DNA of 64,000 nt from Deltaproteobacteria bacterium (GTDB lineage Bacteria > Bdellovibrionota_C > UBA2361 > SZUA-149 > JADLFC01), in NCBI GenBank assembly GCA_020845775.1, contig JADLFC010000116.1, forward strand, positions 7,710 to 71,709. Direction: 5' to 3'. Shown piece by piece: positions 4,328 through 24,559 of the stretch. Position numbers and translations under genes: made by a program. Within the stretch, counting starts at the first letter, position 1. Each line of letters opens with the position of its first letter. Below the pieces are notes generated by a model, which was not told where the DNA came from, did no database searches, and saw only the letters and a list, made by a program, of their open reading frames with translations.

Positions 4328-4544
4328 AGAAAATTCCGCATTAGGAGTATAACCAGCACATCTTCCGTTTTACGAAACACATCCACGATAAATAGCCTGC
4401 TGAAACTAGCTTCCTTCTGTCACTCTACAATCTACATTTGTATAGTATAGCACGAATCGCTTGCGATTTGTCACATTTGCCATTTTTTTTATCTCAGTTT
4501 ACACTTAGCCGAGTAATTTCATGAACGTAAGCAAGCATTTTAGT

Positions 4545-4668
4545 TATACCATTTAGAAAAAGGATTTTTGTAAATGGTATAAACAGCAAGTGCGTAAGCA
4601 CTTGCCAATAAACAACAAATACCGTTTCCAAAAAGTAAAATATTTAACTTACTTTTTGGAAACGGTAT
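4545..4668. repeat. Composite triple-hairpin intergenic repeat, copy 2, upstream of mnmG
   Basis: Matches copy 1 (1537-1661) over about 124 nt, with a G-to-A difference in the hairpin A loop region. Confidence 0.85.
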
Positions 4669-4699
4669 AATATTTTTTGCAGTAATTACAACTCATAAA

Positions 4700-6601: not shown

Positions 6602-6607
6602 TGGGCG

Positions 6608-7814: not shown

Positions 7815-7927
7815 GTTGCCTTACCTCTGCTTCTCTCAGAAACTAACTCTAGCTAAACTAACTCTAAAGTATCAAGCACTATCACAAGATGCTCCAGATT
7901 AATATTGATAATTACCTATCGTATTAA

Positions 7928-9286: not shown

Positions 9287-9406
9287 ATTTTATTAAGATA
9301 ACGGCGTGAGCTAAATTTGTTCCGATATTTCCTTTTGAGAATGTGCATTCCCACTTATAAACAAAAAGATTTAGACCATTTTTACCCAAAGTAGTATCTT
9401 AAAAAA

Positions 9407-10180
9407 GTGGACATAATATTCATAACCATTTTTGGACTTGCCATTGGTAGTTTCCTTAATGTTTGCATTTGGCGGGTTCCGCGCAAATTGTCGGTCGTCA
9501 GTCCAGCGCGCTCTTTTTGTCCCAAATGCAACCGCGCTATATCCTGGAAGGATAATATCCCCTTACTTGGGTGGTTATTGCTGCGCGGCAAGTGTCGCCA
9601 TTGCGAAAAGCCAATATCGAGCCGCTACCCATTGGTGGAAGTGATATCTGCTTTTCTGGCAGTGGCTAGCTATATTGTCTTTGGCGCAACACCAACTGCG
9701 ATTGTAATCTACGCACTCGGAGCCTCTTTGGTAGTAATTAGTTTTATAGATTTTGACTTTAAAATTATCCCTAATGTCATTAGCCTGCCTGGAATTGTTA
9801 TTGGCCTTGCGATAGGTGTCATTTCGCAATTCAGTGGCATATTTGACGCTCCTGTATCAACCGGTGCTTTGGACTCGTTAATCGGGATGTTAGCTGGTGG
9901 TGGATTTTTCTACATAGTGGGCGAGGTGTATTATTTAATAACTAAGCGCAATGGTTTAGGAGGCGGAGATATTAAGTTGCTGGGGATGACTGGTGCAATA
10001 CTAGGATGGAAATCAGTTGCTCCAACTATTTTTGTCGGGTCATTGCTTGGAGCCATTCTAGGCATTGGTCTAATGATATTTAGGGGCGGAGGTCGACAAC
10101 TAGAAATTCCCTTTGGCCCGTGGCTGTCTGCCGGAGTTTTAGTATATATATTTGGCGATTTGCCGTTTTTTAGAGTCTAA
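9407..10180 (+). CDS. pilD: Type IV prepilin peptidase (A24 family)
   Basis: Zinc-binding cysteine box CPKC...CRHC; catalytic region GGGDIKLLG; multiple transmembrane helices. Confidence 0.85.
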
Positions 10181-11601: not shown

Positions 11602-11611
11602 TAACGATAAG

Positions 11612-12310
11612 ATGAACTGCCACGATTTAAAAGTTTTTAAGAAAACTTTTACTGCGACTATGCTTGCATTACTTTTGGTTTTCGGTCTTCTGCCGCGTTG
11701 TGCTTACGGAGATCCTATTTATACTTGGAAAGACGAAAACGGCAGAGTGGTATTTGGAACCAAGCCGCCTTCAGATGCAGCGACGGAAGCAAATCTTCCG
11801 GAAATAAATCGCGAAGATTTAGAGCTTAAAATCGAGAAATTGAAGAAAAACCTGCCTCCCAATTGCATAAAGCACGGTGGTGTGGACTGTTCTAAGGGTG
11901 CTGATGGCGATGGTAGCGTTATATGTTTAGATGGCTACAAAAACGCCATCTTGCCATTTCGCTTTAAGTGCAGGACTGCCAGTTTAGCAGTTAGCCGCAT
12001 CGAAATCGAAGTGCCGAATGCTGCGAGTCAATCGGAATCCATGAATAACCTACAGTTAGTTTTAAGAAACTTGGCTGATGTGGCCGCTGAAGATGTACAA
12101 GTTGAATTTATCATTTCAAAGCGCAGTAAAATTCGAGCCAATGGCCCTAGCAGAGTTGAACCTTTCGGCATTGCAGATTATATTCTCCCCTTGACTGATG
12201 GAGCTAAGCAGCTATCGCCTTTAACTATTGGCGACATCGAATTTAAAGCTCGCTGTGCTAATTGTTCTTCGACGATAAGAAAAAGGATTAAAGATGTTAA
12301 ATCAGATTAG
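11612..12310 (+). CDS. Secreted DUF4124-domain protein
   Basis: Signal peptide followed by the DUF4124 signature IYTWKDENGRVVFGTKPP. Confidence 0.55.
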   Translation: MNCHDLKVFKKTFTATMLALLLVFGLLPRCAYGDPIYTWKDENGRVVFGTKPPSDAATEANLPEINREDLELKIEKLKKNLPPNCIKHGGVDCSKGADGDGSVICLDGYKNAILPFRFKCRTASLAVSRIEIEVPNAASQSESMNNLQLVLRNLADVAAEDVQVEFIISKRSKIRANGPSRVEPFGIADYILPLTDGAKQLSPLTIGDIEFKARCANCSSTIRKRIKDVKSD

Positions 12311-12887
12311 AGATATACTTCTAGCCGAAGCAAAGGTAATTTCCTCGCTTCCGATTGACAAATCTGCGGTGAAGGCAGTGGAGGCGATGCTTAGTTGCAA
12401 GGGCAAGGTTTTTGTAACTGGCATAGGAAAAGCTGGCTATGTTGCACGAAAAACCGCATCGACGTTTTCGACTACCGGTACGCCATCGGTATATTTACAC
12501 CCGGGAGATGCTTCGCATGGCGACGTTGGAGTTATTACCAAGAATGACATTTTGCTAGCATTTTCAAACAGCGGGAAAACTCGTGAGATTTTAGAAACTG
12601 TTCATTTCAGTAGATACCTCGGAGTAGAAGCCGTAATAACAGTGACCTCTTCTAAAGACTCTCCGCTCGGCCAGGAAAGTGACATAGTAATTGAACTTGG
12701 TCACATCGAGGAGCCTTGCCCCTTGGGTCTCACGCCAACTGCGAGCACAACCGCTATGATAGCAATTGCCGATGCCCTAGCACTAACCGCCATGAAGCAC
12801 CGCGGATTCACAAAATCCGACTTTGCCGCCCGGCACCACGGTGGCTATTTAGGTAAGAAGCTAAGAGAAGAAAATGAAGATACCTAA
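12294..12887 (+). CDS. SIS-domain sugar-phosphate isomerase, KpsF/KdsD-like SIS module lacking the CBS pair
   Basis: VFVTGIGKAGYVARKTASTFSTTGTPSVYLHPGDASHGDVGVI matches the arabinose-5-phosphate isomerase SIS domain; only 197 aa. Confidence 0.65.
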   Translation: MLNQIRDILLAEAKVISSLPIDKSAVKAVEAMLSCKGKVFVTGIGKAGYVARKTASTFSTTGTPSVYLHPGDASHGDVGVITKNDILLAFSNSGKTREILETVHFSRYLGVEAVITVTSSKDSPLGQESDIVIELGHIEEPCPLGLTPTASTTAMIAIADALALTAMKHRGFTKSDFAARHHGGYLGKKLREENEDT

Positions 12888-13030
12888 CCCACGATTATTC
12901 ACAGTATTTTTGTCAAAACCGTGAAAAAACTCTCTTTTGACACAGTCGCTACCTTAAGTATTAAGCGAACGTGGTTTTTTCTGGCAAACTGTGGCAATCG
13001 TGATATACCGTTTCTAAAAAGTAGGGGAAT

Positions 13031-14143
13031 ATGTCGAAAAAAGTTTGGTTGATTCTATTGAGCGCCATGCTGCTAGGCGGCTGCGGTGGAGAGAAAAATA
13101 ATGTCGTCAAATTGGCCGTTGTCTCACCGCTAACTGGAGACGTGGCGGCAATGGGTCAGGGCATGAAGCGGGGCGTGGACATGGCGGTGGACGAGGCAAA
13201 TGCTGCTAAGGTGCTTGGGGATAAGACCATCGTAATGGAGGCGTTCGATGACCGGGCCGATCCAAAGGAAGCGGTCAATGCAGCCAACCGAATTATCTCG
13301 GATAGGCGAATCCTCGGCGTTATCGGCCATCTCAACAGCGGGTGCTCAATTCCAGCCAGTCAGATATACGCCAAACGCAATTTGGTGATGATCTCCCCGG
13401 CTTCTACCAACCCCAAGCTTACTTTGCAGGGTTTAAAAAACGTGTTTCGCGTCTGCACCACAGACGATGTGCAAGGCTCGCAGGCCGCGGATTTTGCAGT
13501 CCAGACGTTGAACGCCAAGCGGATGGCAGTAATCCACGATAAAACCGCCTATGGCCAGGGGCTCGCTGAGAATTTCCAAAAACGGGCTCAAGAATTGCAA
13601 GCCGAGGTCACAGGGTTTGACGGCATCGACATTGGAGACAAGGATTTTAAAGCTCTGCTAACCGCTATTAAGACCAAGCAACCTGAGCTTATCTATTTTG
13701 GCGGCATGTACACCGAGGGCGGCCTGCTTACTAAGCAGGCTAAGGAGCTCGGCCTAAACATGCCACTGCTTGCTGGAGACGGCAGCTACACGCCGGAATA
13801 TATAAAAATCGGCGGCAAGTCCTCGGAAGGCGATTACGTTACCACCATGGGCGTTAATCCGGAAGACCTCCCCCTGGCCAAGGGTTTTCTGGAGAGATTC
13901 AAGGTTCGCTATCCGGGAGTGGACATGCAGCCGTACGATCTCTATTCCTATGAAGCAGCGAATCTGCTAATCGCGGCCCTGGCTGAGGCTAAACTAGATC
14001 CCACTAAAATTCCAGCCACCGTCGCGGGCATAAATTATGCTGGAATTTTGGGCACCACCAAGTTTGACCAGAACGGCGATACCTTGAATAAGACCATTAG
14101 CATTTACCAAGTCAAGGACGGCAAATACGCGTTTGTAAAGTAA
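13031..14143 (+). CDS. livK: Branched-chain amino acid ABC transporter substrate-binding lipoprotein, LivK/LivJ family
   Basis: Lipoprotein signal LLGGCGG; type-I periplasmic binding fold; followed by livHMGF. Confidence 0.8.
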   Translation: MSKKVWLILLSAMLLGGCGGEKNNVVKLAVVSPLTGDVAAMGQGMKRGVDMAVDEANAAKVLGDKTIVMEAFDDRADPKEAVNAANRIISDRRILGVIGHLNSGCSIPASQIYAKRNLVMISPASTNPKLTLQGLKNVFRVCTTDDVQGSQAADFAVQTLNAKRMAVIHDKTAYGQGLAENFQKRAQELQAEVTGFDGIDIGDKDFKALLTAIKTKQPELIYFGGMYTEGGLLTKQAKELGLNMPLLAGDGSYTPEYIKIGGKSSEGDYVTTMGVNPEDLPLAKGFLERFKVRYPGVDMQPYDLYSYEAANLLIAALAEAKLDPTKIPATVAGINYAGILGTTKFDQNGDTLNKTISIYQVKDGKYAFVK

Positions 14144-14181
14144 GGGCGCGATTAGCGCACGGCAACTCCGGAGAAAAACCC

Positions 14182-15069
14182 ATGCTCCTACAGCAACTTG
14201 CCAATGGCCTGACTCTTGGCAGTATCTATGCGCTGTTCGCACTAGGGTATACAATGGTCTACGGCGTATTGCTGATGATAAACTTTGCCCATAGTGAAAT
14301 TTTCATGGTGGGCGCCTATTGCGGCCTCGGCATTTTAAGCCACCTCGCTCTGGGAAACTCAGCGTCCCTGCTGTTTGTTGTTATTTCGGCTGCACTCCTG
14401 GCCGCCGGCCTGCTCGCGGTGTTGGTCGAACGCGTGGCTTACCGACCACTGAGGCACGCGCCGCGGCTGGCCCCGCTAATCAGCGCCATCGGCATTTCAA
14501 TTTTCCTGCAAAATGCCGTCATGCTCGGCATCAGCGCCCAATCACTGCCGTATCCGGAAAAAATCACCGTCACCCAACTCCAACTCGGGGGAGCAACGGT
14601 CAATTCACTACAAATTCTTATCTTCTCCCTGGCCATCGGCCTGATGCTGCTGCTTAACCTGTTTCTGCGCAGAACCAAACTGGGTAAGGCCATGCAGGCG
14701 ATTGCCCAGAACCATACCGTCTCACAGTTGATGGGAATCAATGTCAATGCCATTATTGCTCTGACTTTTTTCATCGGCGGCGGTTTGGGCGGAGTGGCCG
14801 GCGCACTCAACGGATTTTATTACGGCAGCATCAAATACAACATGGGTTTTTTTCCGGGAATTAAAGCTTTCACGGCAGCAGTGCTGGGCGGGATCGGCAA
14901 TATCCATGGCGCTATGCTGGGCGGATTCATACTCGGCATTCTGGAGGTCTTTGCAGCTGGATACATATCCTCAGAATACAAGGACGCCATTGCCTTTCTG
15001 GTGCTAATCGTGGTGCTAATCTTCCGGCCGGGTGGCCTCCTCGGAGAACAGATAACGGAAAAAATATGA
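14182..15069 (+). CDS. livH: Branched-chain amino acid ABC transporter permease LivH
   Basis: Polytopic membrane protein in the LivH position; ends with the conserved FRPGGLLG tail. Confidence 0.8.
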   Translation: MLLQQLANGLTLGSIYALFALGYTMVYGVLLMINFAHSEIFMVGAYCGLGILSHLALGNSASLLFVVISAALLAAGLLAVLVERVAYRPLRHAPRLAPLISAIGISIFLQNAVMLGISAQSLPYPEKITVTQLQLGGATVNSLQILIFSLAIGLMLLLNLFLRRTKLGKAMQAIAQNHTVSQLMGINVNAIIALTFFIGGGLGGVAGALNGFYYGSIKYNMGFFPGIKAFTAAVLGGIGNIHGAMLGGFILGILEVFAAGYISSEYKDAIAFLVLIVVLIFRPGGLLGEQITEKI

Positions 15070-16046
15070 AGCCGATCCGCTGGCCCGTCGCGGCCATTAG
15101 CCTTGGTTTTTTTCTGCTGCTCATACTCCCGCTGCTGCTCGGTCCAGACAACTCTTACGTGCTCTATATAGCAAGCCTTATCGGCATTTACGCACTGCTC
15201 TGCCTGGGGCTCAACATCACCATCGGCTATATCGGCCTGTTGGATCTGGGTTTCATGGCGTTTTATGCCATCGGCGCCTACTTGGCAGCACTTCTTAGCA
15301 TACGCGGAGTCTCTTTCTGGCTAATCCTACCAATCTGCGCGCTGGCCGGCGGCCTGCTGCGCTACCTACTTGGACGACCCATTCTAAAACTGCGCGGCGA
15401 TTACCTAGCGATCGTAACACTCGCTTTCGGCGAGATCACTCGCCTCGTTGCCAATAATGCCGTAGCTATCACCAATGGCCCCAAGGGGCTGCCACGGGTC
15501 GGCGAGAAGATGAGCGAGGTTAGCCTGCTCGGCGTGGTTTTTAATGACACCATCCATTACTATTATTTAATTCTCGCCATGGTGGCGTTTACAGCGGTTA
15601 TCAGTTATCGTCTGGAGCACTCGCGTATGGGACGCGCCTTTGTCGCTATCCGCGAAGACGAGCTAGCGGCAGAACTATCCGGGATCAACGTGGCACGTGT
15701 AAAATCCGTAGCCTTTGTGATAAGCGGCATGTTCGGCGCACTGGCTGGAGCTATATATGTGCACTGGATCGGATTCGTCTCGCCCGAGATGTTCACCTTC
15801 TGGGAATCGGTCTTTTTGGTCGCAATGATAGTGGTGGGCGGTATGGGCAACCTGACGGGTGTGGGACTGGGAGTGGTGCTCCTGGTCGGAATGCCGGAAG
15901 TCCTGCGTTCTACCTTGGGAACGCAGTTCGTGGATTTCCGCATGCTGGTATTTGGCTTAGTGATGGTGGTGGTAATTATCTTCCGACCACAGGGATTAAT
16001 TCCGTCCAGGCGCCGCTTATTGGAGTTGCATACGCCTAAAAATTAA
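15066..16046 (+). CDS. livM: Branched-chain amino acid ABC transporter permease LivM
   Basis: Polytopic permease translationally coupled to livH; IFRPQGLI tail. Confidence 0.8.
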   Translation: MKPIRWPVAAISLGFFLLLILPLLLGPDNSYVLYIASLIGIYALLCLGLNITIGYIGLLDLGFMAFYAIGAYLAALLSIRGVSFWLILPICALAGGLLRYLLGRPILKLRGDYLAIVTLAFGEITRLVANNAVAITNGPKGLPRVGEKMSEVSLLGVVFNDTIHYYYLILAMVAFTAVISYRLEHSRMGRAFVAIREDELAAELSGINVARVKSVAFVISGMFGALAGAIYVHWIGFVSPEMFTFWESVFLVAMIVVGGMGNLTGVGLGVVLLVGMPEVLRSTLGTQFVDFRMLVFGLVMVVVIIFRPQGLIPSRRRLLELHTPKN

Positions 16047-16053
16047 TGAGGCC

Positions 16054-16812
16054 ATGGCAGAGCTGCTAAACATCGAGCAAGTCACCAAGCGCTTCGGCGG
16101 ACTGGAAGCCGTCTCAGGCGTCAGTCTGCAACTTGCGCTATGCGAAGTGCTTGGGCTCATAGGACCTAATGGCGCGGGAAAGTCAACGCTGTTTAACCTG
16201 ATTACAGGTGTCTATGCGCCGGACGAAGGCAGAATTGTTTTCCGCAACCGGATGCTCAATCATCTTCCGCCGCATAAGGTAGTGGGAATCGGGATCGCCC
16301 GCACATTCCAAAACATTCGGCTGTTTGCCAACATGACAGCACTTGAAAATGTAATGGTGGGACGACACTGTCGCACCCGCGCCGAGCTGGCGGGGGCACT
16401 GTTACGCACTCCTGGCTTTCGGCAAGAGGAACGCGAAATTCGCGAGCAGGCGCGCGCGCTGCTAGACCGTGTCGGACTGTTAGAGCATGGCAATGAGCTA
16501 GCTAAAAACCTCTCCTACGGCGACCAACGACGATTGGAGATAGCCCGAGCTCTAGCAACAGATCCGGCTTTGCTACTGCTAGACGAGCCGACGGCCGGCA
16601 TGAACCCCAGGGAAAGCGCAGGCTTGGTCTCGCTTATTCAGACCATCCGCCAACAGGAAGTGGCGATAATCATTATCGAACACCAGATGGAGGTTGTGAT
16701 GAACCTCTCGGATCGGGTAATAGTTCTGGATTACGGCAAAAAAATCTGCGAGGGCACGCCGGCAACGGTGCAAAAAGACCCACGGGTTATGGAGGCGTAC
16801 CTTGGCACCTGA
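16054..16812 (+). CDS. livG: Branched-chain amino acid ABC transporter ATP-binding protein LivG
   Basis: Walker A GPNGAGKST; ABC signature LSYGDQRRLEIARAL; Walker B LLLLDEP. Confidence 0.85.
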   Translation: MAELLNIEQVTKRFGGLEAVSGVSLQLALCEVLGLIGPNGAGKSTLFNLITGVYAPDEGRIVFRNRMLNHLPPHKVVGIGIARTFQNIRLFANMTALENVMVGRHCRTRAELAGALLRTPGFRQEEREIREQARALLDRVGLLEHGNELAKNLSYGDQRRLEIARALATDPALLLLDEPTAGMNPRESAGLVSLIQTIRQQEVAIIIIEHQMEVVMNLSDRVIVLDYGKKICEGTPATVQKDPRVMEAYLGT

Positions 16813-17521
16813 ATCTTTGCTGCAATTGGAAAATCTGTCGGTATCCTATGGACAGATCGTCGCTCTACATGGAGTGTCTCTGCATATAGACGCCGGCGAG
16901 ATCGTAGCTATTTTAGGAGCAAATGGCGCGGGAAAGTCAACGCTCATCAACGCAGTTTCCGGCGTTGTGCCAATCCGCGGCGGCCGGGTGCTTTTTCAGA
17001 ACCGAGAACTGCAACAACTGCCAGCATGGCAAATCGCACGCCAAGGAGTGATTCAGATTCCGGAAGGCCGAAAGGTGTTTCCGAAAATGACCGTGCTGGA
17101 AAATCTGGAGCTCGGAGCCTTTCCGACCAAGAACCGAACGGTAGTGCGAACTCGACTTGAGGAAATGTTTGACCGCTTTCCCTTATTGGCAGAACGACGT
17201 CAGCAGCTTGCCGGCACTCTCTCCGGCGGAGAGCAGCAGATGCTGGCTATAGGCCGCGGGCTAATGGCTAATCCGCAGTTGCTGCTGTTTGACGAGCCGT
17301 CAATGGGTCTCTCTCCGGTCATGGTAGAAAAGGTTTTTAAGATCATCAATGATATAAATCGACAAGGCATAACCGTGCTACTGGTAGAGCAAAACGCCAA
17401 CAAATCGCTCCGGATCGCAAATCGGGCTTATGTTTTGGAAACGGGGAAAATCGTGCTATCCGACACCAGCGCCAATCTACTCGAAAACGATGAGGTAAAA
17501 AAGGCCTACCTGGGAGTCTAG
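16802..17521 (+). CDS. livF: Branched-chain amino acid ABC transporter ATP-binding protein LivF
   Basis: Walker A GANGAGKST; ABC signature LSGGEQQMLAIGRGL; Walker B LLLFDEP. Confidence 0.85.
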   Translation: MAPESLLQLENLSVSYGQIVALHGVSLHIDAGEIVAILGANGAGKSTLINAVSGVVPIRGGRVLFQNRELQQLPAWQIARQGVIQIPEGRKVFPKMTVLENLELGAFPTKNRTVVRTRLEEMFDRFPLLAERRQQLAGTLSGGEQQMLAIGRGLMANPQLLLFDEPSMGLSPVMVEKVFKIINDINRQGITVLLVEQNANKSLRIANRAYVLETGKIVLSDTSANLLENDEVKKAYLGV

Positions 17522-17522
17522 C

Positions 17523-18026
17523 CTATCGCTGACCCATTGCCCCCATGGAGTTCATGTTTAACTTCATGCCGTTTGGCATAATAACATCCCCTGGTTTTTG
17601 ATCCGCCTCACACTCTCCTAACCAACGTGCCGACAACGTCATCTTTTGCTCAGACATTCCAGCCATGGGCGGCTCGAATTTGGTAACGATCTCGCCACTG
17701 TAATTTGACGAAAAGTCCCCTGAGAAAACTGTCTTTGAAATCATCCGAGTGCCATTTGCATTGCAATCCGATTCAGCGACAAAATTAGCCCCTCGCTTGC
17801 CAAATTCGTTCTTCGTACACCCCATCCCCTCGCTCATACTCTTTCCCGCATTCATCATAGCGGCATCCGTTGCAGCATCTATGCAATGCTTCATCTTATT
17901 ACCACCTCCAGGCATACCCGGCATGGAAGTCTCAATCTCCCACAATCCTGGCTTCCTGCTGGGATAGTCTTCAGCAACAGCACCAAGGGGCAAAACCAAA
18001 AACAATGCAAATGCAATTTTCCTCAT
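17523..18026 (-). CDS. Secreted DUF3617-like protein. The ORF extends to 18125; the start at 18026 (MRKIAF) is preferred
   Basis: Signal peptide MRKIAFALFLVLPLGAVA followed by the PGLWE motif typical of DUF3617; Gly/Met-rich. Confidence 0.45.
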   Translation of the reverse strand: MRKIAFALFLVLPLGAVAEDYPSRKPGLWEIETSMPGMPGGGNKMKHCIDAATDAAMMNAGKSMSEGMGCTKNEFGKRGANFVAESDCNANGTRMISKTVFSGDFSSNYSGEIVTKFEPPMAGMSEQKMTLSARWLGECEADQKPGDVIMPNGMKLNMNSMGAMGQR

Positions 18027-18121
18027 AAAAACTCTTAACTCTAAAACTGCGTTAATAAAAACGGTTAATAAAATAAACACAGTCACTATATAACATATAA
18101 GTTTGATCGAGACAGCCCAAT

Positions 18122-21100
18122 TCATACCAACTCAATGTCTACTATTACCGGCAAATGATCTGAGGCAATTCTCGTTAGCTCATTGTGCGGCACGAAACTA
18201 TCAATTACCTTAATGCCCTCACTCACAAAGATATGATCGATGCGGCAAACCGGCCACTGAACATGCCAGGTATTGGAACCATTGCCAACCGACAGCGGAT
18301 AGCGCTCTAACGAACTCGAGTCCTCTTCTCCACTGTGCGCATCCACAAGCACTTCCTTAAACATTCTACACACCTTCGACCGCGGCGTGGCATTAAAATC
18401 TCCACATACTACGATTGGCCCTATACATTTTGGGTTTTTTACCCATCCTTTCCCCAGTAAACTTTCCGCCTGCAACTCCCGTTCTTTGCGCTCCAACCCC
18501 ATATGGGTATTGATTACCTGCAACTTAACTCCATTTCCAACATCAACTTCAACCCACAAAGCACCCCTGGGTTCTACATCCGCTCTCTTCACCTGTCGCG
18601 GCAATACGCCTGCCTTCTGAAGACTCATTGCGTACCTGCTTAAAATCGCATCGCCATAGCGCTCCTCCTTAACATGCATAGCAGGAGAAAAGTGAAATAC
18701 CATCTCGAGCTCATTAGCTATTGCCCGAGCCTGATCTAGGTGTTCAGAACGAGCTCTCCCGACATCGATTTCCTGTAACGCTATAATATCCGGTGAAAAT
18801 CTCTCGATAACCTTAGCAATCCTAGCAGGCGAAAGCTTCCCATCCATGCCTACGCACGAATGAACGTTATAAGTCATTACTCGAATAACGCGATTATTTC
18901 TCTTGCGCACTCGCCACACATCGCTAGTCGCCTCATCGACTGGCACTCCATGTAAATACCTATAGGCCTCCTTATATAGATCGCTAAATTTTAAATGCGC
19001 TCGACCCTCCTCTCCAATGTCAATTCCTCGCGGGAATATCCCAAATGCGTGCGTCTCCTCCGGGCCTGGCCCAGCATGCGAACCACTCTCTATGGGAAAT
19101 GACACCGTCTTAGCACCTAATCTCCAGCCAGAAATAACTAAATCGCCCGCTTCGCGATGATTACAATATTCGACGATGTCCTCCAATACATCTGAAAGAA
19201 ACGGATGCTGCTCTCCGAACACTACACTGCCATCGCGCGGTAGTTCGTACTCGCCAGCCTGATTGATTGCTAACACTTTGTCGCCAACCACAAACATTAC
19301 CAAAGGAACATGTGCCTCTCGCACAAGCCTTTGCGACATCGCCTTCTTCTCGACGAGAGACAACCTCTGCTTGCAATATATATTGCCTAGTGGGCCAAGA
19401 GCGGTAACGACAACTTTCTCGCCTTCCACCGCGCTAAAATCCCACTTGGGCTTTCTCAACAGCTTCTGCAACCAGCGGCCACCTATCCAACTTGCGCGAC
19501 CAAACAAAACGCTGTCGCGATATCTGCCGACCGCATTACTCGAAGTCTCCTTTGACGATACAACATCTTCACACAACTTCTTAACCGCCTCCTCAATACT
19601 TCTACCTTCCTCCTCAAGATAAGACACGGTATCTTCCTGCCCATGGTCTGAATATATCCACACCTCGTAGTCTCTGCGCGGCGATAGGCGCGCGGCGCGC
19701 CAGATACGTTTTATCGATGCATCAATCCCCTTAAGCGTCCAATATGCAAATTGAGAACTCGGTCCACGCCGATGCGCCTGTTCGTCATACCCCAAAAAGT
19801 TAACATGGATAACAGGCAACCCTCGAAAAGCATCCATAACCGCACCTGCCGTCACCATCTCGCGAAGCAGGATGCAAATTGCAACCCTCGTCGGAACAAA
19901 AACAATCTCCTTAAATAAATCCCTGCCTGCTATAAGTCCATTAACGCAATCCACTACTGCCAATACCGCCTCTATAAACATAAGCGCCAGGCATCTAATC
20001 ACAGTAACGCCATGCCAAATAGCTACGCCCAACAATTTCCAGGGATTTACCAGCTCAAAAACACTTCCCCACCCAAAGGCTGCCGGACAAAAACGCGCTT
20101 CAGCCGCCCCACCAGAATATATGTTAGAGCTCGAACTCCCTCCCTTCAAAAGCCCATCCCCAGCTTCCCGCAGACGCTTTTCTACAATCTCGGCACTAAC
20201 TGGATCTGACATCTTAAAAATTCGACCCAACTCTCTATCGAAAAACTCAAAACCAACAACTCCCATCTTCTGATTATAAAACAACTCGCCCTGAACGGAC
20301 GGCGTGCTAGAAGGCAAGCCAGAATATATGCTACGCAACTCATAACCTTGCTTCCTTACAAGGCGTCGCAAAAATCTTAGCTTTCCAGCATCACAAGCCT
20401 TCTCAAAGTTCGGGCGCGATAAACCATCTATTTGAATCATTATTAGCCCTGGCTTCGAGTCCGCATTAGTAGCGCACCACAACCCTAGCAGTTTGACCAT
20501 CAACTCCCCGCGACTAAACAGTATTCGCAGTTTGCGAATTTGGCGAACGATCTTGCGCACCCATCTCAAGCGAGAAAGAGTTGCAAAAAAGAATGCGTGC
20601 CTAAAAGCTTTTAGCGTTGTCTCTAGTAGCTCATATTCAACTTCTATTCTTCTCTGAGCCTCCGACCACGCGCTGTTATCAATGTCCTCTATCTTAGGCC
20701 CCTCGGTTAATAACTTCTCATACACATCTAAAACCCTAGCGGCACACCGCTCAATAGATAGAGACTGCGCTGTAGCTCTGGCGCCCACACTTAACGACAA
20801 ACGATTATCCACGTTACTAGCGCCAATGCGCTCAATCGCCGAACAAAACGCCTGCCTGTCCTGCCCACCTAACAAGAACCCATTTTCCCCAGTTCTAACT
20901 ATCTCGCGTACTCCTGGCGCATCAAGAGCCACGACTGGCACACCCGCCGCCATCGCCTCTGTAATGACCATCCCCTGCGTTTCAGATAGGGACGAAAACA
21001 CAAACACATCCATCGCGTGATAACTGTCAACTAGATCCTGACCCTCCAAGGAGCCCACACTATACAACCTATCCCCAAGTCTTGCCCGATTAAATATAGC

Positions 21101-21844
21101 CTCAGCTTCCTTTTTGCTTGGCCCATCTCCAACTAGCAGAAACCGAGCATGTGAATTTGTAAGACAAAACTTCTTTAGCGCTTCAACCAAGAATACTAAA
21201 TTTTTTTCCGGCGCTAATCTTCCAACATGGCCGACAACAAACGCATCAAGCGGTATTAAACGCCCCGCACGAAATCTTTTGCCATCGCCAGCCGCAAATC
21301 TCTCCACATCAACCCCAGTCGGAACGACTGCGATCGGAACTATCACACCGCGACTCAACAAAATCGCTTTGATGCTCTCGCTAGGCACGATGACCTGGTT
21401 GCAGAGATTTGCATATCCAGTAGCTAACTGAATTACAAACTCCTTCATCTCCGGGGAGTCCCCTGGAATATAATGGGTGTAGTGCTCGTACATGGTGTGA
21501 TGAGTAAACACCACCGGCACCCTGTGAACGGCAGCTATCCGAAGAGCTGTGTCTCCCAAAAGAAAGGGATGATGCGAGTGAATAATGTCTGGCTCGAATT
21601 CACTCACTGCGGCATACAGCGATGCGGAAATGGGTAACTTTACTGAGAAATCACTTCCATTAAAATTCTGAATGGCAGGAATGCGAATTACATCCTTCTC
21701 CTCAGCTGGAAGATTTGGAAATTCGGGAGCTAATATCAGCACCCTATGGCCCAGGCGCCGGTAGGAGTCCGCAAATTGGCTCACCGATCTTGCCACCCCA
21801 CCGACGTGTGGCAAATAAGTATTTGTAAGCATCAATATATTCAT
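18122..21844 (-). CDS. 1240-aa tri-domain fusion: N-terminal GT4 glycosyltransferase, central alkaline-phosphatase-superfamily (nucleotide pyrophosphatase/phosphodiesterase-like) core, C-terminal endonuclease/exonuclease/phosphatase (EEP) domain
   Basis: GT4 motifs LTNTYLPHVGGVARSV and ETQGMVITEAMAAGVPVV; AlkP/NPP-like motifs IMIQIDGLSRPNF, YSGLPSSTPSVQGELFYN and VWIYSDHGQ; EEP motifs MTYNVHSC, IALQEIDVG, VVCGDFNATPRS and SDHLPV. Confidence 0.7.
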   Translation of the reverse strand: MNILMLTNTYLPHVGGVARSVSQFADSYRRLGHRVLILAPEFPNLPAEEKDVIRIPAIQNFNGSDFSVKLPISASLYAAVSEFEPDIIHSHHPFLLGDTALRIAAVHRVPVVFTHHTMYEHYTHYIPGDSPEMKEFVIQLATGYANLCNQVIVPSESIKAILLSRGVIVPIAVVPTGVDVERFAAGDGKRFRAGRLIPLDAFVVGHVGRLAPEKNLVFLVEALKKFCLTNSHARFLLVGDGPSKKEAEAIFNRARLGDRLYSVGSLEGQDLVDSYHAMDVFVFSSLSETQGMVITEAMAAGVPVVALDAPGVREIVRTGENGFLLGGQDRQAFCSAIERIGASNVDNRLSLSVGARATAQSLSIERCAARVLDVYEKLLTEGPKIEDIDNSAWSEAQRRIEVEYELLETTLKAFRHAFFFATLSRLRWVRKIVRQIRKLRILFSRGELMVKLLGLWCATNADSKPGLIMIQIDGLSRPNFEKACDAGKLRFLRRLVRKQGYELRSIYSGLPSSTPSVQGELFYNQKMGVVGFEFFDRELGRIFKMSDPVSAEIVEKRLREAGDGLLKGGSSSSNIYSGGAAEARFCPAAFGWGSVFELVNPWKLLGVAIWHGVTVIRCLALMFIEAVLAVVDCVNGLIAGRDLFKEIVFVPTRVAICILLREMVTAGAVMDAFRGLPVIHVNFLGYDEQAHRRGPSSQFAYWTLKGIDASIKRIWRAARLSPRRDYEVWIYSDHGQEDTVSYLEEEGRSIEEAVKKLCEDVVSSKETSSNAVGRYRDSVLFGRASWIGGRWLQKLLRKPKWDFSAVEGEKVVVTALGPLGNIYCKQRLSLVEKKAMSQRLVREAHVPLVMFVVGDKVLAINQAGEYELPRDGSVVFGEQHPFLSDVLEDIVEYCNHREAGDLVISGWRLGAKTVSFPIESGSHAGPGPEETHAFGIFPRGIDIGEEGRAHLKFSDLYKEAYRYLHGVPVDEATSDVWRVRKRNNRVIRVMTYNVHSCVGMDGKLSPARIAKVIERFSPDIIALQEIDVGRARSEHLDQARAIANELEMVFHFSPAMHVKEERYGDAILSRYAMSLQKAGVLPRQVKRADVEPRGALWVEVDVGNGVKLQVINTHMGLERKERELQAESLLGKGWVKNPKCIGPIVVCGDFNATPRSKVCRMFKEVLVDAHSGEEDSSSLERYPLSVGNGSNTWHVQWPVCRIDHIFVSEGIKVIDSFVPHNELTRIASDHLPVIVDIELV

Positions 21845-21847
21845 CTA

Positions 21848-24133
21848 TCAGTTGATGTTACTTACGCTTAACTCTACACCGTTTGAACTACCTAAAAGTG
21901 TTATTGGTTCCTCGCCAGCAATGCAAACAATTATCTCGTTCGGCTCAGTCTGCCACTTCGCTTTCCAGGACACTCTAAGAGACATGCCTGCATTTATCAC
22001 ACGAACCTCAATTGTTCCAAACTTAGTCTGCGTCGGACCAAAAAACAACTCTCCTTCGGATAGAAGCCACTTCCTTGGCAAACCGCTACATAGTATAAGG
22101 CGGTCGCCTTCCTCGCGCACAAAACAGTTTTTCAGCATCAGTATCCATTCCGCCGCCGCCCATGCATGCTGCCCATCACCCATACATCCGCCCAAAGTTC
22201 TCGGATGTATTGCCTCTGGCCATTGTCCCGTCGGTGACGCCAAACGCGCAACATTCTCGACTAGCTCAAAAAAGCGACTATCTCCGGCCCTCAGCAACAC
22301 TTGCGCCACGTGAAGTGTTAGATACGCATTTAGGCCAGAGTGAATCATGTCTTGAAAAAAAGCCCCTCGAACAAAGCTCCTTTCCATTAAGCTATTTGCC
22401 GTTGCGAGTAACCGACTATCTTTTGCTGGCCAAAGTTCCAGGGGGTATCCAACTACTATTGAACCTATAGCGCCAGCATCCATTCGCCTGTGTGGCGATG
22501 CTGGAATGCCACTCTGCTGAGGATCGACTTTAAGCCAGCGGAAGCTCTCTTCTATGGCCTCCATCAGCAAATCTGCCTCAGCTCTCGTAGCCATTGACAG
22601 CTTGTCCATACCAACACTTTCAAGCATCACAGACGAACGGCGCAAACCTGCAACTGACCAAAAATTATCCCAATAGTAATAATCATTGGGGCCCAAATGT
22701 TCCGCACTGAATCCAGCCGGCAACAGCCCTGCATGTGGCACATTTTTTAACCTCCTTAAGCGTTTTCGCTCGATCCAGCGTGCCCCCTGTGCAATCGAAT
22801 CGACCCAATTGCCATTCAATGGATGTTTGGACAGCTCCAAATATCTATGCATTATCCATAGCACCTGGCCATTTGAATCCCACTCACCCGCCTGCGATAC
22901 AAAATACCCATCCCTGCTCTGTCTGGCCGGAAACGAATCTATTACGCGCCGCGCTTCGTCCAGCAATCCTATTGCCATCATGGCGTTAAGAATGAAAACA
23001 GCATCTCGAAACCAAAACCTCCTATATGTATAGGGGCCAGGATATACATCCCCGGGGGCATGGAGAATAAGAGTCCTCACCGCGCAATCGTAGAGATAGT
23101 TAAACAACTCATCGGGAACACTCATTCCCGCACAGCGGTTTAATCTTTCCTCCCATAAGGCATCCTCAACTTTAGCAAGACCTCCATTGGCCTTTGACAA
23201 ACTCATTCTCGCGGGTTCAAGCGGAACCATTACATTCACGGTGCGTAACTTCGATTCCTCTAACGAAAATAGCGCCGCTCCAGTAGCCATACCAACCTCG
23301 CACTTAATGGAATCTTTAGTATCGCTACCTGAACGCTTATCATGCAGACGATAGTACACATCTCCGGCTAAATAATCGGACAATAGATAGCTATCCGGCC
23401 TAGTGTCAAAAACCACTTTTCCATCACCGTTAATGAGCCACTCCTGCAAATCTTCACGCAATAAAATATCGTGGACAAAACTTATTCCCTCGGGATTATA
23501 TGGACGCACCGAGATAACTAGATTAGCAGAAGTGTCGCTAAGTGCGCGAATCTCCATGACACAATGCGTAACTTCCTGGATGACCATTACATTTACAAGC
23601 ACATCCAACCTAAGCCCATCTAATGAACTAGAGGTAGTTACAGCAACACCTCCTGAAATAAGTAGCTTTTGATTGACCTGCTCAAGTCTCGAAGGGATTA
23701 GCTCCGAACCATTATCAGCAATTACCCATGCGTCAATCGTCCAACTATCCCAAAATGGCATGACTAAACCCCGCGGGTCTATGACCGGAAGTTCCAAACC
23801 ATTTGGCAAGCCAACGGCCGTCCAATTGCGATGGCTCAGATTTACATGTGTAATCGAAAAGGCTCTGGGTATAAACGACTCGTCATGCGGATCGAACTGT
23901 CGCTCCACCCAGTAGGGCCATACCCAATCGAGATTGTGCTGAATTACTTTGGTGTTTATTAAGCCGCGAGCATGAAACACAACTCCAGCTCGCAATAATT
24001 CGAGAGGTTCAGCAACCTCAGACGGCTGCTGAAACCTGTGCAATTGGCCTAATACTGCAATCGGATCGATAAAACCACGAGCACGAGCTATCCTCTTAAC
24101 CACATATCGCCATGGTAACCATTTTAGCCACAT
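21848..24133 (-). CDS. (alpha/alpha)6-barrel glycoside hydrolase, GH63/GH15-like (glucosidase or glycosylglycerate-hydrolase-like)
   Basis: 761 aa; an N-terminal beta-rich region precedes a C-terminal six-hairpin region with GYFVSQAGEWDSNGQVLW and DYYYWDNFWSVAGL; 3-bp gap to the fusion gene downstream. Confidence 0.5.
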   Translation of the reverse strand: MWLKWLPWRYVVKRIARARGFIDPIAVLGQLHRFQQPSEVAEPLELLRAGVVFHARGLINTKVIQHNLDWVWPYWVERQFDPHDESFIPRAFSITHVNLSHRNWTAVGLPNGLELPVIDPRGLVMPFWDSWTIDAWVIADNGSELIPSRLEQVNQKLLISGGVAVTTSSSLDGLRLDVLVNVMVIQEVTHCVMEIRALSDTSANLVISVRPYNPEGISFVHDILLREDLQEWLINGDGKVVFDTRPDSYLLSDYLAGDVYYRLHDKRSGSDTKDSIKCEVGMATGAALFSLEESKLRTVNVMVPLEPARMSLSKANGGLAKVEDALWEERLNRCAGMSVPDELFNYLYDCAVRTLILHAPGDVYPGPYTYRRFWFRDAVFILNAMMAIGLLDEARRVIDSFPARQSRDGYFVSQAGEWDSNGQVLWIMHRYLELSKHPLNGNWVDSIAQGARWIERKRLRRLKNVPHAGLLPAGFSAEHLGPNDYYYWDNFWSVAGLRRSSVMLESVGMDKLSMATRAEADLLMEAIEESFRWLKVDPQQSGIPASPHRRMDAGAIGSIVVGYPLELWPAKDSRLLATANSLMERSFVRGAFFQDMIHSGLNAYLTLHVAQVLLRAGDSRFFELVENVARLASPTGQWPEAIHPRTLGGCMGDGQHAWAAAEWILMLKNCFVREEGDRLILCSGLPRKWLLSEGELFFGPTQTKFGTIEVRVINAGMSLRVSWKAKWQTEPNEIIVCIAGEEPITLLGSSNGVELSVSNIN

Positions 24134-24198
24134 ATCTTTATAATAATTTTTTTAGACTAACGTTTGCCGAGCAAGAAAAACCACTTAGCGCCTAGGCA

Positions 24199-24323
24199 TA
24201 TACCGTTTCCAAAAAGTAAAATATTTAACTTACTTTTTGGAAACGGTATATGTTGTTTATTGGCAAGTGCTTACGCACTTGCTGTTTATACCATTTACAA
24301 AAATCCTTTTTGTAAATGGTATA
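24199..24323. repeat. Composite triple-hairpin intergenic repeat, copy 3, in inverted orientation relative to copies 1 and 2
   Basis: Reverse complement of the 1537-1661 element: hairpin C comes first (24199-24250), then the central GCAAGTGCTTACGCACTTGC hairpin, then hairpin A (24287-24323). Confidence 0.85.
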
Positions 24324-24559
24324 AATACTAAACAATATCAAAGACTTCGACCACTGCCAATATTGACCATTGCCCTCTGCGCTCCTCACGCAAACTGCAT
24401 ATATATCAAGTAAATAGTGCTCTATGTCGAAACAGAGATAAGGGATACGAGTTTTGCACAAAAATCCAAACTCTAAAACGCGAGGCAATAGAGTCGAACG
24501 CCAAAAGCAGATACCACTGAGTAGCACTGTATTTATAGAAGAAGATAATATTAAGTCAC

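What the first reader, a model, noticed from the sequence alone, without database searches (positions are those of the whole stretch)
18122..21844. 1240-aa GT4 / alkaline-phosphatase-like / EEP tri-domain fusion protein
One uninterrupted ORF combines three domains. The N-terminal GT4 glycosyltransferase is retaining and nucleotide-sugar dependent. The central alkaline-phosphatase-superfamily core carries NPP-like motifs (IDGLS, GLPSSTPSV, YSDHG). The C-terminal domain is an endonuclease/exonuclease/phosphatase domain (NVHSC, LQEIDVG, GDFNATP, SDHLPV). Two hydrophobic segments separate the domains. The combination suggests an assembly line that builds and then processes a phospho-glycoside, such as a sugar-phosphate-linked glycolipid or a compatible-solute phosphate. 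I do not recognise this architecture as a described enzyme. It is co-transcribed with a GH63/GH15-like hydrolase, so the pair may make and turn over the same glycoside.
Basis: partly seen in the sequence, partly recalled or inferred. Interest (0 to 1): 0.65.

Follow-up and report, generated by a model that had tools for sequence, protein, structure and literature searches.

The report
Fused glycosyltransferase–double phosphoesterase gene, conserved operon
The 1240-residue three-enzyme protein is real, but it is the fused version of two neighbouring genes from a widespread, unstudied bacterial operon that most likely remodels membrane lipids by cutting phosphate head groups and adding sugars.

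Summary
Window 18122-21844 (-) is one intact 1240-aa ORF with three domains: GT4 glycosyltransferase, NPP-type alkaline-phosphatase-fold domain and EEP phosphoesterase. All catalytic residues are invariant across 38 homologues. Two independent assemblies carry the same ORF, so it is not a chimera.

The architecture is not rare. At least 120 protein clusters are fused. More often the same unit is two adjacent genes: GT4 (~425 aa) and NPP-EEP (~810 aa). Relatives occur in at least 593 species genomes from 11 or more phyla.

My best reading, at about 0.4 confidence, is a membrane-associated module. The NPP-EEP pair would strip phosphate head groups from a phospholipid. GT4 would glycosylate the resulting lipid. 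The GH15-like enzyme would trim or recycle the sugar. This resembles PlcP-Agt lipid renovation but uses different enzyme families. A soluble phospho-glycoside pathway is not excluded. I found no paper describing the system.

The parts
21848..24133 (-). Partner gene, 761 aa. It has a conserved basic N-terminal ~100 aa, then a beta-sandwich, an (alpha/alpha)6 barrel and a C-terminal beta-sandwich. The fold is GH15-like and no Pfam family matches.
18122..21844 (-). The fused 1240-aa ORF (GT4 + NPP-like + EEP), stop codon included.
   Evidence: The ORF is intact in independent assemblies.
20690..21844 (-). GT4 glycosyltransferase domain, residues 1-385. It is a GT-B fold with the EX7E motif E288...E296 and the invariant residues G15, G16, R209 and K214.
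   Evidence: Pfam. The best NCBIfam match is alpha-monoglucosyl-diacylglycerol synthase Mgs at 147 bits, against a cut-off of 400. PDB sequence hits are MshA, SPS and PimA.
20459..20689 (-). Basic amphipathic linker, residues 386-462. The fusion junction lies at about residues 419-430 (window 20555-20590).
   Evidence: Split GT4 proteins align to fusion residues 1-418. Split NPP-EEP proteins align to residues 431-1239. The linker has pI about 10 across the family. The model shows helices of low confidence here.
18920..20458 (-). NPP-type alkaline-phosphatase-superfamily domain, residues 463-975. Proposed metal ligands and nucleophile: D473, T514, D687, H691, D733, H734 and H923.
19817..20059 (-). 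Hydrophobic two-helix hairpin inserted in the NPP domain, residues 596-676. It contains the invariant charged residues E625, E646, R653, R661 and R674.
   Evidence: Hydropathy analysis. The AF2 model has helices at 612-638 and 643-674 with pLDDT 80-92.
18125..18892 (-). EEP (endonuclease/exonuclease/phosphatase) domain, residues 985-1240. Catalytic residues: N993, E1025, D1149, N1151, D1203, D1229 and H1230.
17523..18125 (-). DUF3617 gene, 200 aa, overlapping the fusion's stop by 4 nt. It is specific to this lineage and is not part of the conserved cassette.
   Evidence: Pfam. The overlap is shown. No homologue occurs in the 86 related loci. The gene is present in the Logan contigs of the same organism.
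24134..24559 (.). Upstream intergenic region shared with a divergent PAS-histidine kinase gene. It holds two perfect hairpins that belong to a dispersed REP-like repeat family.

Best explanation
The ORF is an end-to-end fusion of two adjacent genes of a widespread, uncharacterised operon. The operon order is [VTT/DedA membrane protein] - [GH15-like glycosidase-fold protein] - [GT4 glycosyltransferase] - [NPP-like + EEP double phosphoesterase].

Proposed mechanism, acting at the cytoplasmic face of the inner membrane:
1. The NPP-like domain (Thr nucleophile, two-metal site) and the EEP domain (Mg-dependent) act one after the other on a phospholipid head group. One makes a phospholipase-C/D-type phosphodiester cut. 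The other removes the remaining phosphate. The product is a phosphate-free lipid such as diacylglycerol.
2. The GT4 domain transfers a sugar from a nucleotide sugar to that lipid, giving an alpha-glycosyl lipid.
3. The GH15-like partner trims, extends or recycles the alpha-glycosidic head group.
4. Where present, the VTT protein redistributes the lipid between leaflets and the ACP-PlsC protein re-acylates lyso forms.

Shown here: domain identities, intact catalytic residues, the fused versus split relationship, conserved gene linkage, and the absence of a signal peptide-like N-terminus.

Inferred: every substrate, the order of the steps, membrane association and the physiological trigger.
For: Fusion of two genes:
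- Split GT4 covers fusion residues 1-418 and split NPP-EEP covers 431-1239.
- In Microbulbifer yueqingensis the genes are VTT 7039-7761, partner 7761-10004, GT4 10001-11275 and NPP-EEP 11294-13759.
- Species-genome loci: 16 fused, 65 split. Partner-centred metagenome loci: 4 fused, 23 split.
- About 16 of the best 150 NPP-EEP representatives are fused.

All three catalytic centres are invariant.

Indications of a lipid substrate:
- The best curated family for the GT4 domain is alpha-monoglucosyl-DAG synthase, with a full-length alignment. GlcN-phosphatidylglycerol synthase, the IagA/BgsA glycolipid transferase and a DAG glucosyltransferase are also in the list, and PimA is among the PDB hits.
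- VTT_dom PF09335 is confirmed and present in 72 of 167 loci, usually overlapping the partner's start.
- A PP-binding + PlsC acyltransferase sits between partner and GT4 in 24 of 167 loci.
- The NPP domain is structurally closest to single-domain NPPs. These include ENPP6 (lysophospholipase C / glycerophosphodiesterase) and ENPP7 (alkaline sphingomyelinase). Among characterised enzymes the EEP domain scores highest with neutral sphingomyelinase.
- The EEP domain also passes the PGAP2IP/CWH43 lipid-remodelling model.
- There is a hydrophobic hairpin, and there are basic amphipathic segments in the linker and at the partner's N-terminus.

Precedent: operons pairing a phospholipase C with a glycolipid glycosyltransferase supply DAG for glycolipid synthesis (PlcP-Agt, PMC4796936).
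Against: - No substrate was tested.
- The GT4 score for Mgs (147 bits) is far below the equivalog cut-off of 400, and MshA and exopolysaccharide GT4s score nearly as well.
- The GT4 N-domain is not basic (family median pI 6.5), unlike monotopic lipid glycosyltransferases as I recall them.
- The hairpin helices carry invariant charged residues, so they may be a lid rather than a membrane anchor.
- EEP fold matches to nocturnin, TDP2 and CCR4 are as good as those to sphingomyelinases.
- GH15 enzymes are known for soluble alpha-glucans and trehalose, not for lipids.
- Many loci have partner + GT4 without NPP-EEP (14 of 81), and some have the partner without GT4 (about 9 of 81). The phosphoesterases are therefore accessory.
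- No Pho-box or sigma-32 signal is enriched upstream.
- The window itself has no VTT, PlsC or HSP20 gene.
Confidence: 0.4

Rival explanations
1. Soluble phospho-glycoside or compatible-solute pathway, which is the core of the first reader's idea. GT4 would glycosylate a phosphorylated small acceptor, as sucrose-phosphate synthase, MshA or GlgM do. One phosphoesterase domain would remove the phosphate. The GH15-like enzyme would degrade the solute when stress ends.
For: - GT4 PDB sequence hits are led by MshA (3c4q, E 1e-17) and a cyanobacterial sucrose-phosphate synthase (6kih). Maltose-1-phosphate synthase also appears.
- HSP20 genes lie near the cassette in 10 of 167 loci, including both sides of it in L004 and next to it in Nitrosococcus halophilus.
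- An S6PP-like gene and a GH57 gene occur in the N. halophilus locus.
- GH15 includes trehalases and glucoamylases (established knowledge), and the fold match is.
- The GT4 N-domain is not basic.
Against: - It does not explain two different phosphoesterase domains that are always fused to each other.
- It does not explain the hydrophobic hairpin.
- It does not explain the frequent VTT/DedA gene (72 of 167) or the ACP-PlsC acyltransferase (24 of 167).
- The score for the sucrose-phosphate synthase model is 37.8 bits against a cut-off of 576.
- Known pathways of this type use HAD-type phosphatases, not NPP or EEP domains (established knowledge).
Confidence: 0.2
2. Intracellular alpha-glucan or oligosaccharide metabolism. 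GT4 would be an alpha-glucosyltransferase of the Rv3032 or glycogen-synthase type. The GH15-like protein would be a glucoamylase or transglucosidase. The phosphoesterases would remove phosphate from a phosphorylated primer or glucan.
For: - There are faint starch-synthase N-terminal (Glyco_transf_5) hits and a glgA_Coryne hit.
- The top structural match of the partner is the GH15 transglucosidase dextran dextrinase, followed by glucoamylases.
- GH13 genes are adjacent in L002/L003, and GH57 plus a methyltransferase are nearby in L087.
Against: - Alpha-glucan genes are rare near the cassette: GH13 in 3 of 167 loci and GH57 in 1 of 167.
- The partner does not match the GH15 Pfam model, and an invariant Asp sits where the GH15 acid Glu aligns.
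- This reading does not explain the VTT and PlsC genes.
Confidence: 0.12
3. Synthesis of a phosphodiester-decorated glycolipid. The NPP-like domain would act as a transferase rather than a hydrolase, as LtaS, EptA, OpgB and PIG-N do. It would move a phospho-alcohol head group from a phospholipid onto the sugar made by GT4 and release DAG, which GT4 would re-use. The EEP domain would remodel or release the product.
For: - A Thr nucleophile is typical of AP-superfamily diesterases and phospho-alcohol transferases (established knowledge), and T514 is invariant.
- PF01663 also covers the GPI ethanolamine-phosphate transferases (my recollection).
- The EEP domain passes the PGAP2IP/CWH43 model.
- GT4 is the family of PIG-A and PimA, and PimA is a PDB hit.
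- The lipid-related neighbours are as described in the best explanation.
Against: - The closest structures are hydrolytic single-domain NPPs. No EptA, LtaS or MCR-type structure appears among the top 60.
- There is no N-terminal multi-span membrane domain such as known transferases have.
- All domains appear to be cytoplasmic.
Confidence: 0.1
4. The long ORF is an assembly chimera or a sequencing-error read-through of two genes.
For: The commoner arrangement elsewhere is two genes separated by 18-68 nt.
Against: - The same 3723-nt ORF occurs in at least two independent read sets, with 7 substitutions of which only one changes an amino acid.
- At least 120 other clusters are full-length fusions.
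- Fused forms make coherent clades.
Confidence: 0.01

Closest known systems
PlcP-Agt lipid-renovation operons (phospholipase C + glycolipid glycosyltransferase; Sebastian et al. 2016, PMC4796936)
   Same: A phosphodiester-cleaving enzyme is genetically coupled to a GT4-type glycosyltransferase. The logic is that the phospholipid head group is removed to give DAG, which is then glycosylated. Both systems are widely distributed across phyla.
   Different: - As I recall, PlcP belongs to a different fold family from NPP and EEP. I did not check this here.
- This cassette has two phosphoesterase domains plus a GH15-like protein and often a VTT protein.
- No Pho box is enriched upstream.
- The GT4 was not shown to be an Agt orthologue.
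Alpha-monoglucosyl-diacylglycerol synthase Mgs (NCBIfam NF049988) and other lipid-directed GT4s (PimA, GlcN-PG synthase, IagA/BgsA)
   Same: Mgs is the best-scoring curated family, and the alignment runs the full length (residues 1-381 against profile 1-390 of 398). The EX7E motif and the diphosphate-binding R/K residues are conserved.
   Different: The score is 147 bits against an equivalog cut-off of 400. The N-domain is not basic. The domain is fused or coupled to phosphoesterases.
Single-domain NPPs: Xanthomonas NPP, ENPP6 (choline glycerophosphodiesterase / lysophospholipase C), ENPP7 (alkaline sphingomyelinase)
   Different: Sequence similarity is marginal (E 2e-4 with a profile). There is an ~80-residue hydrophobic helical hairpin and a further low-confidence insertion. 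The domain is cytoplasmic, not secreted. It is always fused to an EEP domain.
EEP phosphoesterases: Beutenbergia 4ruw, neutral sphingomyelinases, nocturnin, TDP2
   Different: No subfamily is singled out, so the substrate cannot be read from the fold.
GH15 glucoamylase / glucodextranase / dextran dextrinase (for the partner protein)
   Different: No Pfam GH15 hit is found. The profile E-value against the PDB is only 0.04-0.08. An invariant Asp (YYYWD) aligns with the GH15 general-acid Glu. The partner also has an extra, highly conserved basic N-terminal ~100 residues and a C-terminal beta-sandwich.
Sucrose-phosphate synthase with a fused SPP-like domain
   Different: The phosphatase there is HAD-type. 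The SPS model score here is 37.8 against 576. The operon context also differs.

Membership tests
CAZy GT4 (retaining GT-B glycosyltransferases) | Two Rossmann-like halves recognised by the Glyco_transf_4 and Glycos_transf_1 models above their cut-offs | tested here: met
   117.9 bits against a cut-off of 28.5, and 109.6 bits against 26.4.
CAZy GT4 (retaining GT-B glycosyltransferases) | EX7E motif and basic residues that bind the nucleotide diphosphate | tested here: met
   E288 and E296 are invariant, as are R209 and K214, in 38 sequences.
CAZy GT4 (retaining GT-B glycosyltransferases) | Retention of anomeric configuration and use of a nucleotide-sugar donor | not testable with these tools
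   This needs an enzyme assay.
Alpha-monoglucosyl-DAG synthase Mgs (NF049988 equivalog) | Score at or above the curated equivalog cut-off of 400 bits | tested here: not met
   The score is 147.2 bits. It is the best hit but far below the cut-off.
NPP / alkaline-phosphatase superfamily | PF01663 above its gathering score, and an AP-core fold | tested here: met
NPP / alkaline-phosphatase superfamily | Bimetal ligands (D, D-H, D-H, H) and a Thr nucleophile | tested here: met
   D473, T514, D687, H691, D733, H734 and H923 are invariant. The IDGL, DExxH and SDHG motifs align with Xac NPP. The assignments of T514 and H923 rest on motif position and invariance.
NPP / alkaline-phosphatase superfamily | Extracytoplasmic location, as in typical NPPs | tested here: not met
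   There is no N-terminal signal-like hydrophobic segment. In split proteins the first ~20 residues are basic.
EEP superfamily (PF03372) | Model above its cut-off and a complete catalytic set | tested here: met
Neutral sphingomyelinase / PLC-type EEP subfamily | Specific resemblance beyond the generic EEP fold | tested here: inconclusive
GH15 (for the partner gene) | Beta-sandwich + (alpha/alpha)6 fold | tested here: met
GH15 (for the partner gene) | Sequence membership (Pfam Glyco_hydro_15) and the Glu general acid | tested here: not met
   No Pfam hit is found. The profile against the PDB gives E 0.04. An invariant D489 aligns with the acid Glu of dextran dextrinase.
PlcP-Agt Pho-regulated lipid renovation | Pho box upstream, indicating induction by phosphate starvation | tested here: not met
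   The best-match distribution in 126 upstream regions equals that of shuffled controls. Expression was not tested.
PlcP-Agt Pho-regulated lipid renovation | Production of glycosyl-DAG from phospholipid-derived DAG | not testable with these tools
   This needs lipidomics or enzyme assays.
Sucrose-phosphate synthase / SPP fusion | SPS glycosyltransferase model at cut-off, plus a HAD phosphatase domain | tested here: not met
   TIGR02472 scores 37.8 bits against 576. No HAD domain is present.
Anti-phage defence systems ('GT4-conflict') | Match to a defence-system model | tested here: not met
   PF20706 scores 23.2 bits, below its cut-off of 26. PADLOC gives no hits for any of the three proteins.

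The most novel reading that the evidence does not exclude
The cassette would be a bacterial counterpart of the core logic of eukaryotic GPI-anchor assembly, compressed into one polypeptide.
- A PIG-A/PimA-like GT4 would put a sugar on a phosphatidyl lipid.
- The PF01663 domain would act like the PIG-N/O/G enzymes, as a phospho-alcohol transferase rather than a hydrolase.
- A CWH43/PGAP2IP-like EEP domain would exchange or remodel the lipid moiety.
- The GH15-like protein, which would found a new glycoside hydrolase family, would edit the glycan.

The product would be a previously unseen class of phosphodiester-decorated glycolipid in at least 11 bacterial phyla.
Probability: 0.08. Interest if true: 0.85.

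Novelty: new variant of a known kind. Interest (0 to 1): 0.55.

Why it matters
The operon occurs in hundreds of species, from Planctomycetota and Omnitrophota to cultivable Gammaproteobacteria such as Microbulbifer, Saccharospirillum, Rheinheimera, Bowmanella and Nitrosococcus. Even so, none of its genes has an assigned function, and the most conserved member has no Pfam family at all.

If the lipid reading is right, it describes a second, Pho-independent route from phospholipid to glycolipid, built from different enzyme families than PlcP-Agt. That would bear on membrane adaptation and on phosphorus budgets in marine and sediment bacteria.

Whatever the substrate turns out to be:
- The partner is a candidate new glycoside-hydrolase family.
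- The obligatory NPP-EEP didomain is an undescribed pairing of two phosphoesterase folds.
- The fused and split variants give a ready Rosetta-stone argument and convenient constructs for biochemistry.

Tried and rejected
- Mis-assembly. Rejected by independent Logan contigs and by the many full-length homologues.
- Transmembrane separators between domains. Rejected. There is only one strongly hydrophobic region, it lies inside the NPP domain, and it carries invariant charges.
- GH63 identity of the neighbour. GH15-type proteins are clearly the better structural matches.
- Defence system, suggested by the weak 'GT4-conflict' Pfam hit. That hit is below its cut-off and PADLOC finds nothing.
- Heat-shock or phosphate regulon. 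HSP20 genes are near the cassette in only 10 of 167 loci. Sigma-32 and Pho-box consensus scans of 126 upstream regions were no better than shuffled sequence.
- RNA thermometer or operator. The two hairpins upstream of the partner gene looked like candidates, but they are copies of a dispersed repeat.
- Alpha-glucan linkage, suggested by L002 and L087. These genes are rare in the wider sample.
- Single-sequence and profile searches of the partner against the PDB. They gave no significant hit.
- Six literature searches found no description of the architecture or the operon.
- Host organism. It was not identified. The nearest fusion homologue is only 52% identical.

Full report

Window 18122-21844 on the minus strand is a single 1240-codon ORF with an ATG start.

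Pfam finds a complete GT4 glycosyltransferase: Glyco_transf_4 at residues 14-182 and Glycos_transf_1 at 191-341. It also finds a Phosphodiest/NPP domain at 467-755, scoring 36.4 bits against a cut-off of 23. Finally it finds an Exo_endo_phos domain at 990-1230, scoring 90.7 bits.

The upstream 761-aa gene (21848-24133, minus strand) stops 3 nt before the ATG. A 200-aa DUF3617 gene overlaps the stop codon by 4 nt. No terminator-like site above chance lies between these genes.

Contigs assembled independently from two sequencing runs carry the same gene order. They hold the same intact ORF with 7 nucleotide differences and 1 amino-acid difference. A chimera is therefore excluded for practical purposes.

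**2. Corrections to the anatomy**

The hydrophobic segments do not lie between the domains. The GT4-NPP linker (residues 386-462) is basic and amphipathic. Its family median pI is about 10, and the model shows helices of low confidence there.

The only strongly hydrophobic stretch covers residues ~600-672. Its Kyte-Doolittle 19-residue maximum is 2.38 in this protein and 1.81 for the family average. It is a two-helix hairpin inserted within the NPP domain, between the nucleophile T514 and the D687/H691 metal ligands. It carries invariant charged residues: E625, E646, R653, R661 and R674. It could be a re-entrant membrane anchor or a substrate lid, and I could not decide which.

**3. Are the three domains functional?**

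I aligned 38 full-length homologues of 43-52% identity. The invariant positions include:
- GT4: G15, G16, R209, K214 and the EX7E pair E288/E296.
- NPP set: D473, T514, D687, H691, D733, H734 and H923.
- EEP set: N993, D1149, N1151, D1203, D1229 and H1230. E1025 is at least 90% conserved.

A profile of the NPP region aligns its IDGL, DExxH and SDHG motifs with the corresponding motifs of Xanthomonas NPP.

All three domains therefore look like working enzymes under purifying selection.

**4. How common is the architecture?**

The protein search returned 360 proteins at E <= 1e-10. The best 120 clusters are all about 1190-1290 aa with 97-100% coverage, and where they are named at all they are called simply 'glycosyltransferase'.

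The carriers include:
- Planctomycetota, Omnitrophota, Verrucomicrobiota, Desulfobacterota, Nitrospirota, Nitrospinota and Bdellovibrionota.
- Sumerlaeota, Riflebacteria, Hydrogenedentota, and Alpha- and Gammaproteobacteria.
- Cultured Microbulbifer, Saccharospirillum, Rheinheimera and Bowmanella.

Inspection of the loci showed that the commoner form is two adjacent genes. In Microbulbifer yueqingensis, GT4 is 10001-11275 (424 aa) and NPP-EEP is 11294-13759 (821 aa). L107 has the same arrangement.

Counts of fused against split forms:

| Sample | Fused | Split | Source |
|---|---|---|---|
| Species-genome loci | 16 | 65 | |
| Partner-centred metagenome loci | 4 | 23 | |
| Best 150 NPP-EEP representatives (all-against-library HMMER) | about 16 | rest are 780-850-aa stand-alone NPP-EEP proteins | |

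Split GT4 aligns to fusion residues 1-418 and split NPP-EEP to residues 431-1239. The window protein is therefore a simple end-to-end fusion with a junction at about residues 419-430.

Fused forms cluster in a few clades. About eight state changes are needed on a neighbour-joining tree. The window protein groups with fused proteins from Desulfobacterota-type MAGs. NPP and EEP were joined in one ORF in all 95 loci where both could be scored.

**5. The operon**

The 761-aa upstream gene is the most constant companion. It is present in 69 of 86 fusion-centred loci, mostly directly upstream on the same strand and often overlapping.

Its family is large, with at least 4595 clusters. It has no Pfam or NCBIfam model and is annotated only as 'hypothetical'.

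At the sequence level the relation to GH15 is marginal, with E 0.04. The W-x-R-D motif is shared, but an invariant Asp (YYYWD, D489) aligns with the general-acid Glu of the GH15 'WED' motif.

The first ~100 residues are basic (pI about 9.9) and packed with invariant residues, yet they are modelled with low confidence.

Sampling around partner homologues shows that the core pair is partner + GT4:
- 14 of 81 loci have GT4 but no NPP-EEP within 3 kb or more downstream. Nitrosococcus halophilus Nc4 is one example.
- About 9 loci have the partner without a nearby GT4.
- In two loci the NPP-EEP gene is separated from GT4 by other genes (L116, L147).

Two further genes recur:
- A ~240-aa VTT/DedA-family membrane protein (PF09335, E 1e-22 to 1e-24) lies immediately upstream of the partner in 72 of 167 loci.
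- A 486-aa protein with a phosphopantetheine-binding domain and a PlsC-type acyltransferase domain lies between partner and GT4 in 24 of 167 loci.

HSP20 genes lie nearby in 10 of 167 loci. Alpha-glucan genes are rare: GH13 in 3 loci and GH57 in 1. The window itself has only partner + fusion + a lineage-specific DUF3617 gene.

**6. Most likely mechanism**

The conserved neighbours (a VTT/DedA membrane protein and a PlsC acyltransferase with its own carrier domain) point to a lipid substrate. So do several other observations.
- The best curated GT4 family is alpha-monoglucosyl-diacylglycerol synthase, with a full-length alignment at 147 bits.
- Other glycerolipid-directed GT4s are in the same list, and PimA is among the solved structures matched.
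- Both phosphoesterase domains have close structural relatives that cut lipid phosphodiesters: ENPP6, ENPP7 and neutral sphingomyelinases.
- The EEP domain passes the PGAP2IP/CWH43 model.
- There is a hydrophobic hairpin and there are basic amphipathic segments.

I therefore propose that the NPP-EEP unit converts a phospholipid to a phosphate-free lipid in two steps: a diester cut followed by removal of the remaining phosphate. GT4 then glycosylates that lipid. The GH15-like protein edits or recycles the alpha-glycosidic head group.

The known PlcP-Agt operons use the same logic with a single phospholipase C and an Agt glycosyltransferase (PMC4796936).

Only the domain identities, catalytic integrity and gene linkage are shown here. 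Substrates, step order, membrane association and the trigger are inferred. I put this at about 0.4.

**7. Evidence against, and rivals**

- The Mgs score is far below the equivalog cut-off of 400. MshA (106 bits) and exopolysaccharide GT4s score nearly as well.
- The GT4 N-domain is not basic.
- EEP fold matches do not discriminate sphingomyelinases from nocturnin or TDP2.
- GH15 enzymes are known for soluble substrates.
- The NPP-EEP unit is dispensable in many operons.
- Scans of 126 upstream regions found no enrichment of Pho-box or sigma-32 consensus.

The rivals and my estimates for them are:
It is supported by the MshA/SPS-like hits and the HSP20 neighbours. About 0.2.
- An alpha-glucan role. 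About 0.12.
- Synthesis of a phosphodiester-decorated glycolipid, with the NPP domain acting as a transferase. About 0.1.

A defence-system role is rejected.

**8. Known or new?**

Six full-text searches found no paper on this architecture, the NPP-EEP didomain or the partner family. The library is incomplete, so this is absence of evidence only.

Every domain belongs to a known superfamily, and thousands of copies sit unnamed in databases. The sequence itself is therefore not new.

What is undescribed is the operon as a functional unit, the obligatory pairing of an NPP fold with an EEP fold, and a GH15-like family without any model.

I rate it a new variant of a known kind: phosphoesterase-coupled GT4 pathways. 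Interest is 0.55. It is a well-defined, widespread and experimentally tractable unknown, rather than a surprising anomaly.

Noticed in passing
window 24197-24325; also ~1537-1661, 4545-4669, 13004-13021, 47696-47747, 59753-59789: A dispersed family of perfect palindromic hairpins with the arm motif TATACCRTTTMCAAAAAG. It has 17 matches in the window against 0.02 expected. The copies lie in or beside intergenic gaps between the listed ORFs and come as paired inverted copies, except a single copy at 13004-13021. The family looks REP- or MITE-like. Two copies (23-nt and 19-nt stems) sit upstream of the partner gene. The Logan contigs of the same organism end about 124 nt upstream of the partner gene, which is near these repeats.
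   Followed up: partly
window 12000-24000: GC content is raised here: 0.49-0.53 over the branched-chain amino-acid ABC transporter (13031-17521) and 0.48 over the cassette, against about 0.43-0.44 elsewhere. Copies of the palindromic repeat lie at both ends (13004 and 24199-24323). The nearest homologues of the fusion are only 52% identical and come from other phyla. This suggests an old horizontal acquisition.
   Followed up: partly
window 21848-24133 (-), residues 1-100 of the partner protein: The N-terminal ~100 residues are among the most conserved parts of the protein, with dozens of invariant residues and a family pI of about 9.9. AlphaFold nevertheless models them at pLDDT about 50-60. 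This pattern would fit a segment that folds only against a partner protein or a membrane.
   Followed up: no
L004 (8.78-Mb planctomycete-like contig), 4072-5562 and 14229-15402; 16618-19128: The fused gene is flanked on both sides by near-duplicate arrays of three HSP20 genes. DnaJ- and HtrA-like genes lie upstream. A PLD/cardiolipin-synthase-like gene and a stand-alone EEP gene, homologous to the fusion's EEP domain, lie downstream. No partner gene is present in this locus.
   Followed up: partly
L011 and L069 (MAGs labelled Halobacteria archaeon); P0132 (Methanococcoides sp. SA1): The cassette or the partner occurs in genomes labelled archaeal. In the NPP-EEP tree L011 and L069 sit among Pseudomonadota sequences (L009, L048). 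Mis-binning or transfer from bacteria is therefore likely. True archaeal carriers would argue against a diacylglycerol substrate.
   Followed up: no
L087 (Nitrosococcus halophilus Nc4, CP001798) 3461-14698: In this complete genome the partner is followed by a stand-alone 427-aa GT4 with no NPP-EEP gene. Two HSP20 genes are adjacent, and a GH57 gene and a 395-aa methyltransferase lie upstream. The GT4/GH57/methyltransferase set recalls the mycobacterial methylglucose-lipopolysaccharide cluster.
   Followed up: no
window 56414-59691 (-): A 642-aa protein combines succinyl-CoA-ligase-alpha-like and citryl-CoA-lyase-like regions, with a 434-aa ORF next to it. The pair resembles the two subunits of ATP-citrate lyase and hints at a reverse TCA cycle in the host. 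The host also has dnaX, mnmG, pcrA, an ArnT-like gene and a FliI/SctN ATPase. I did not identify the organism.
   Followed up: no
L116 and L147: These operons are rearranged. In L147 the order is GT4 - (gap) - partner - NPP-EEP. In L116 the NPP-EEP gene lies upstream of the partner and GT4 lies downstream, with a PlsC-like gene in the locus. The linkage survives the gene shuffling, which strengthens the functional association.
   Followed up: partly
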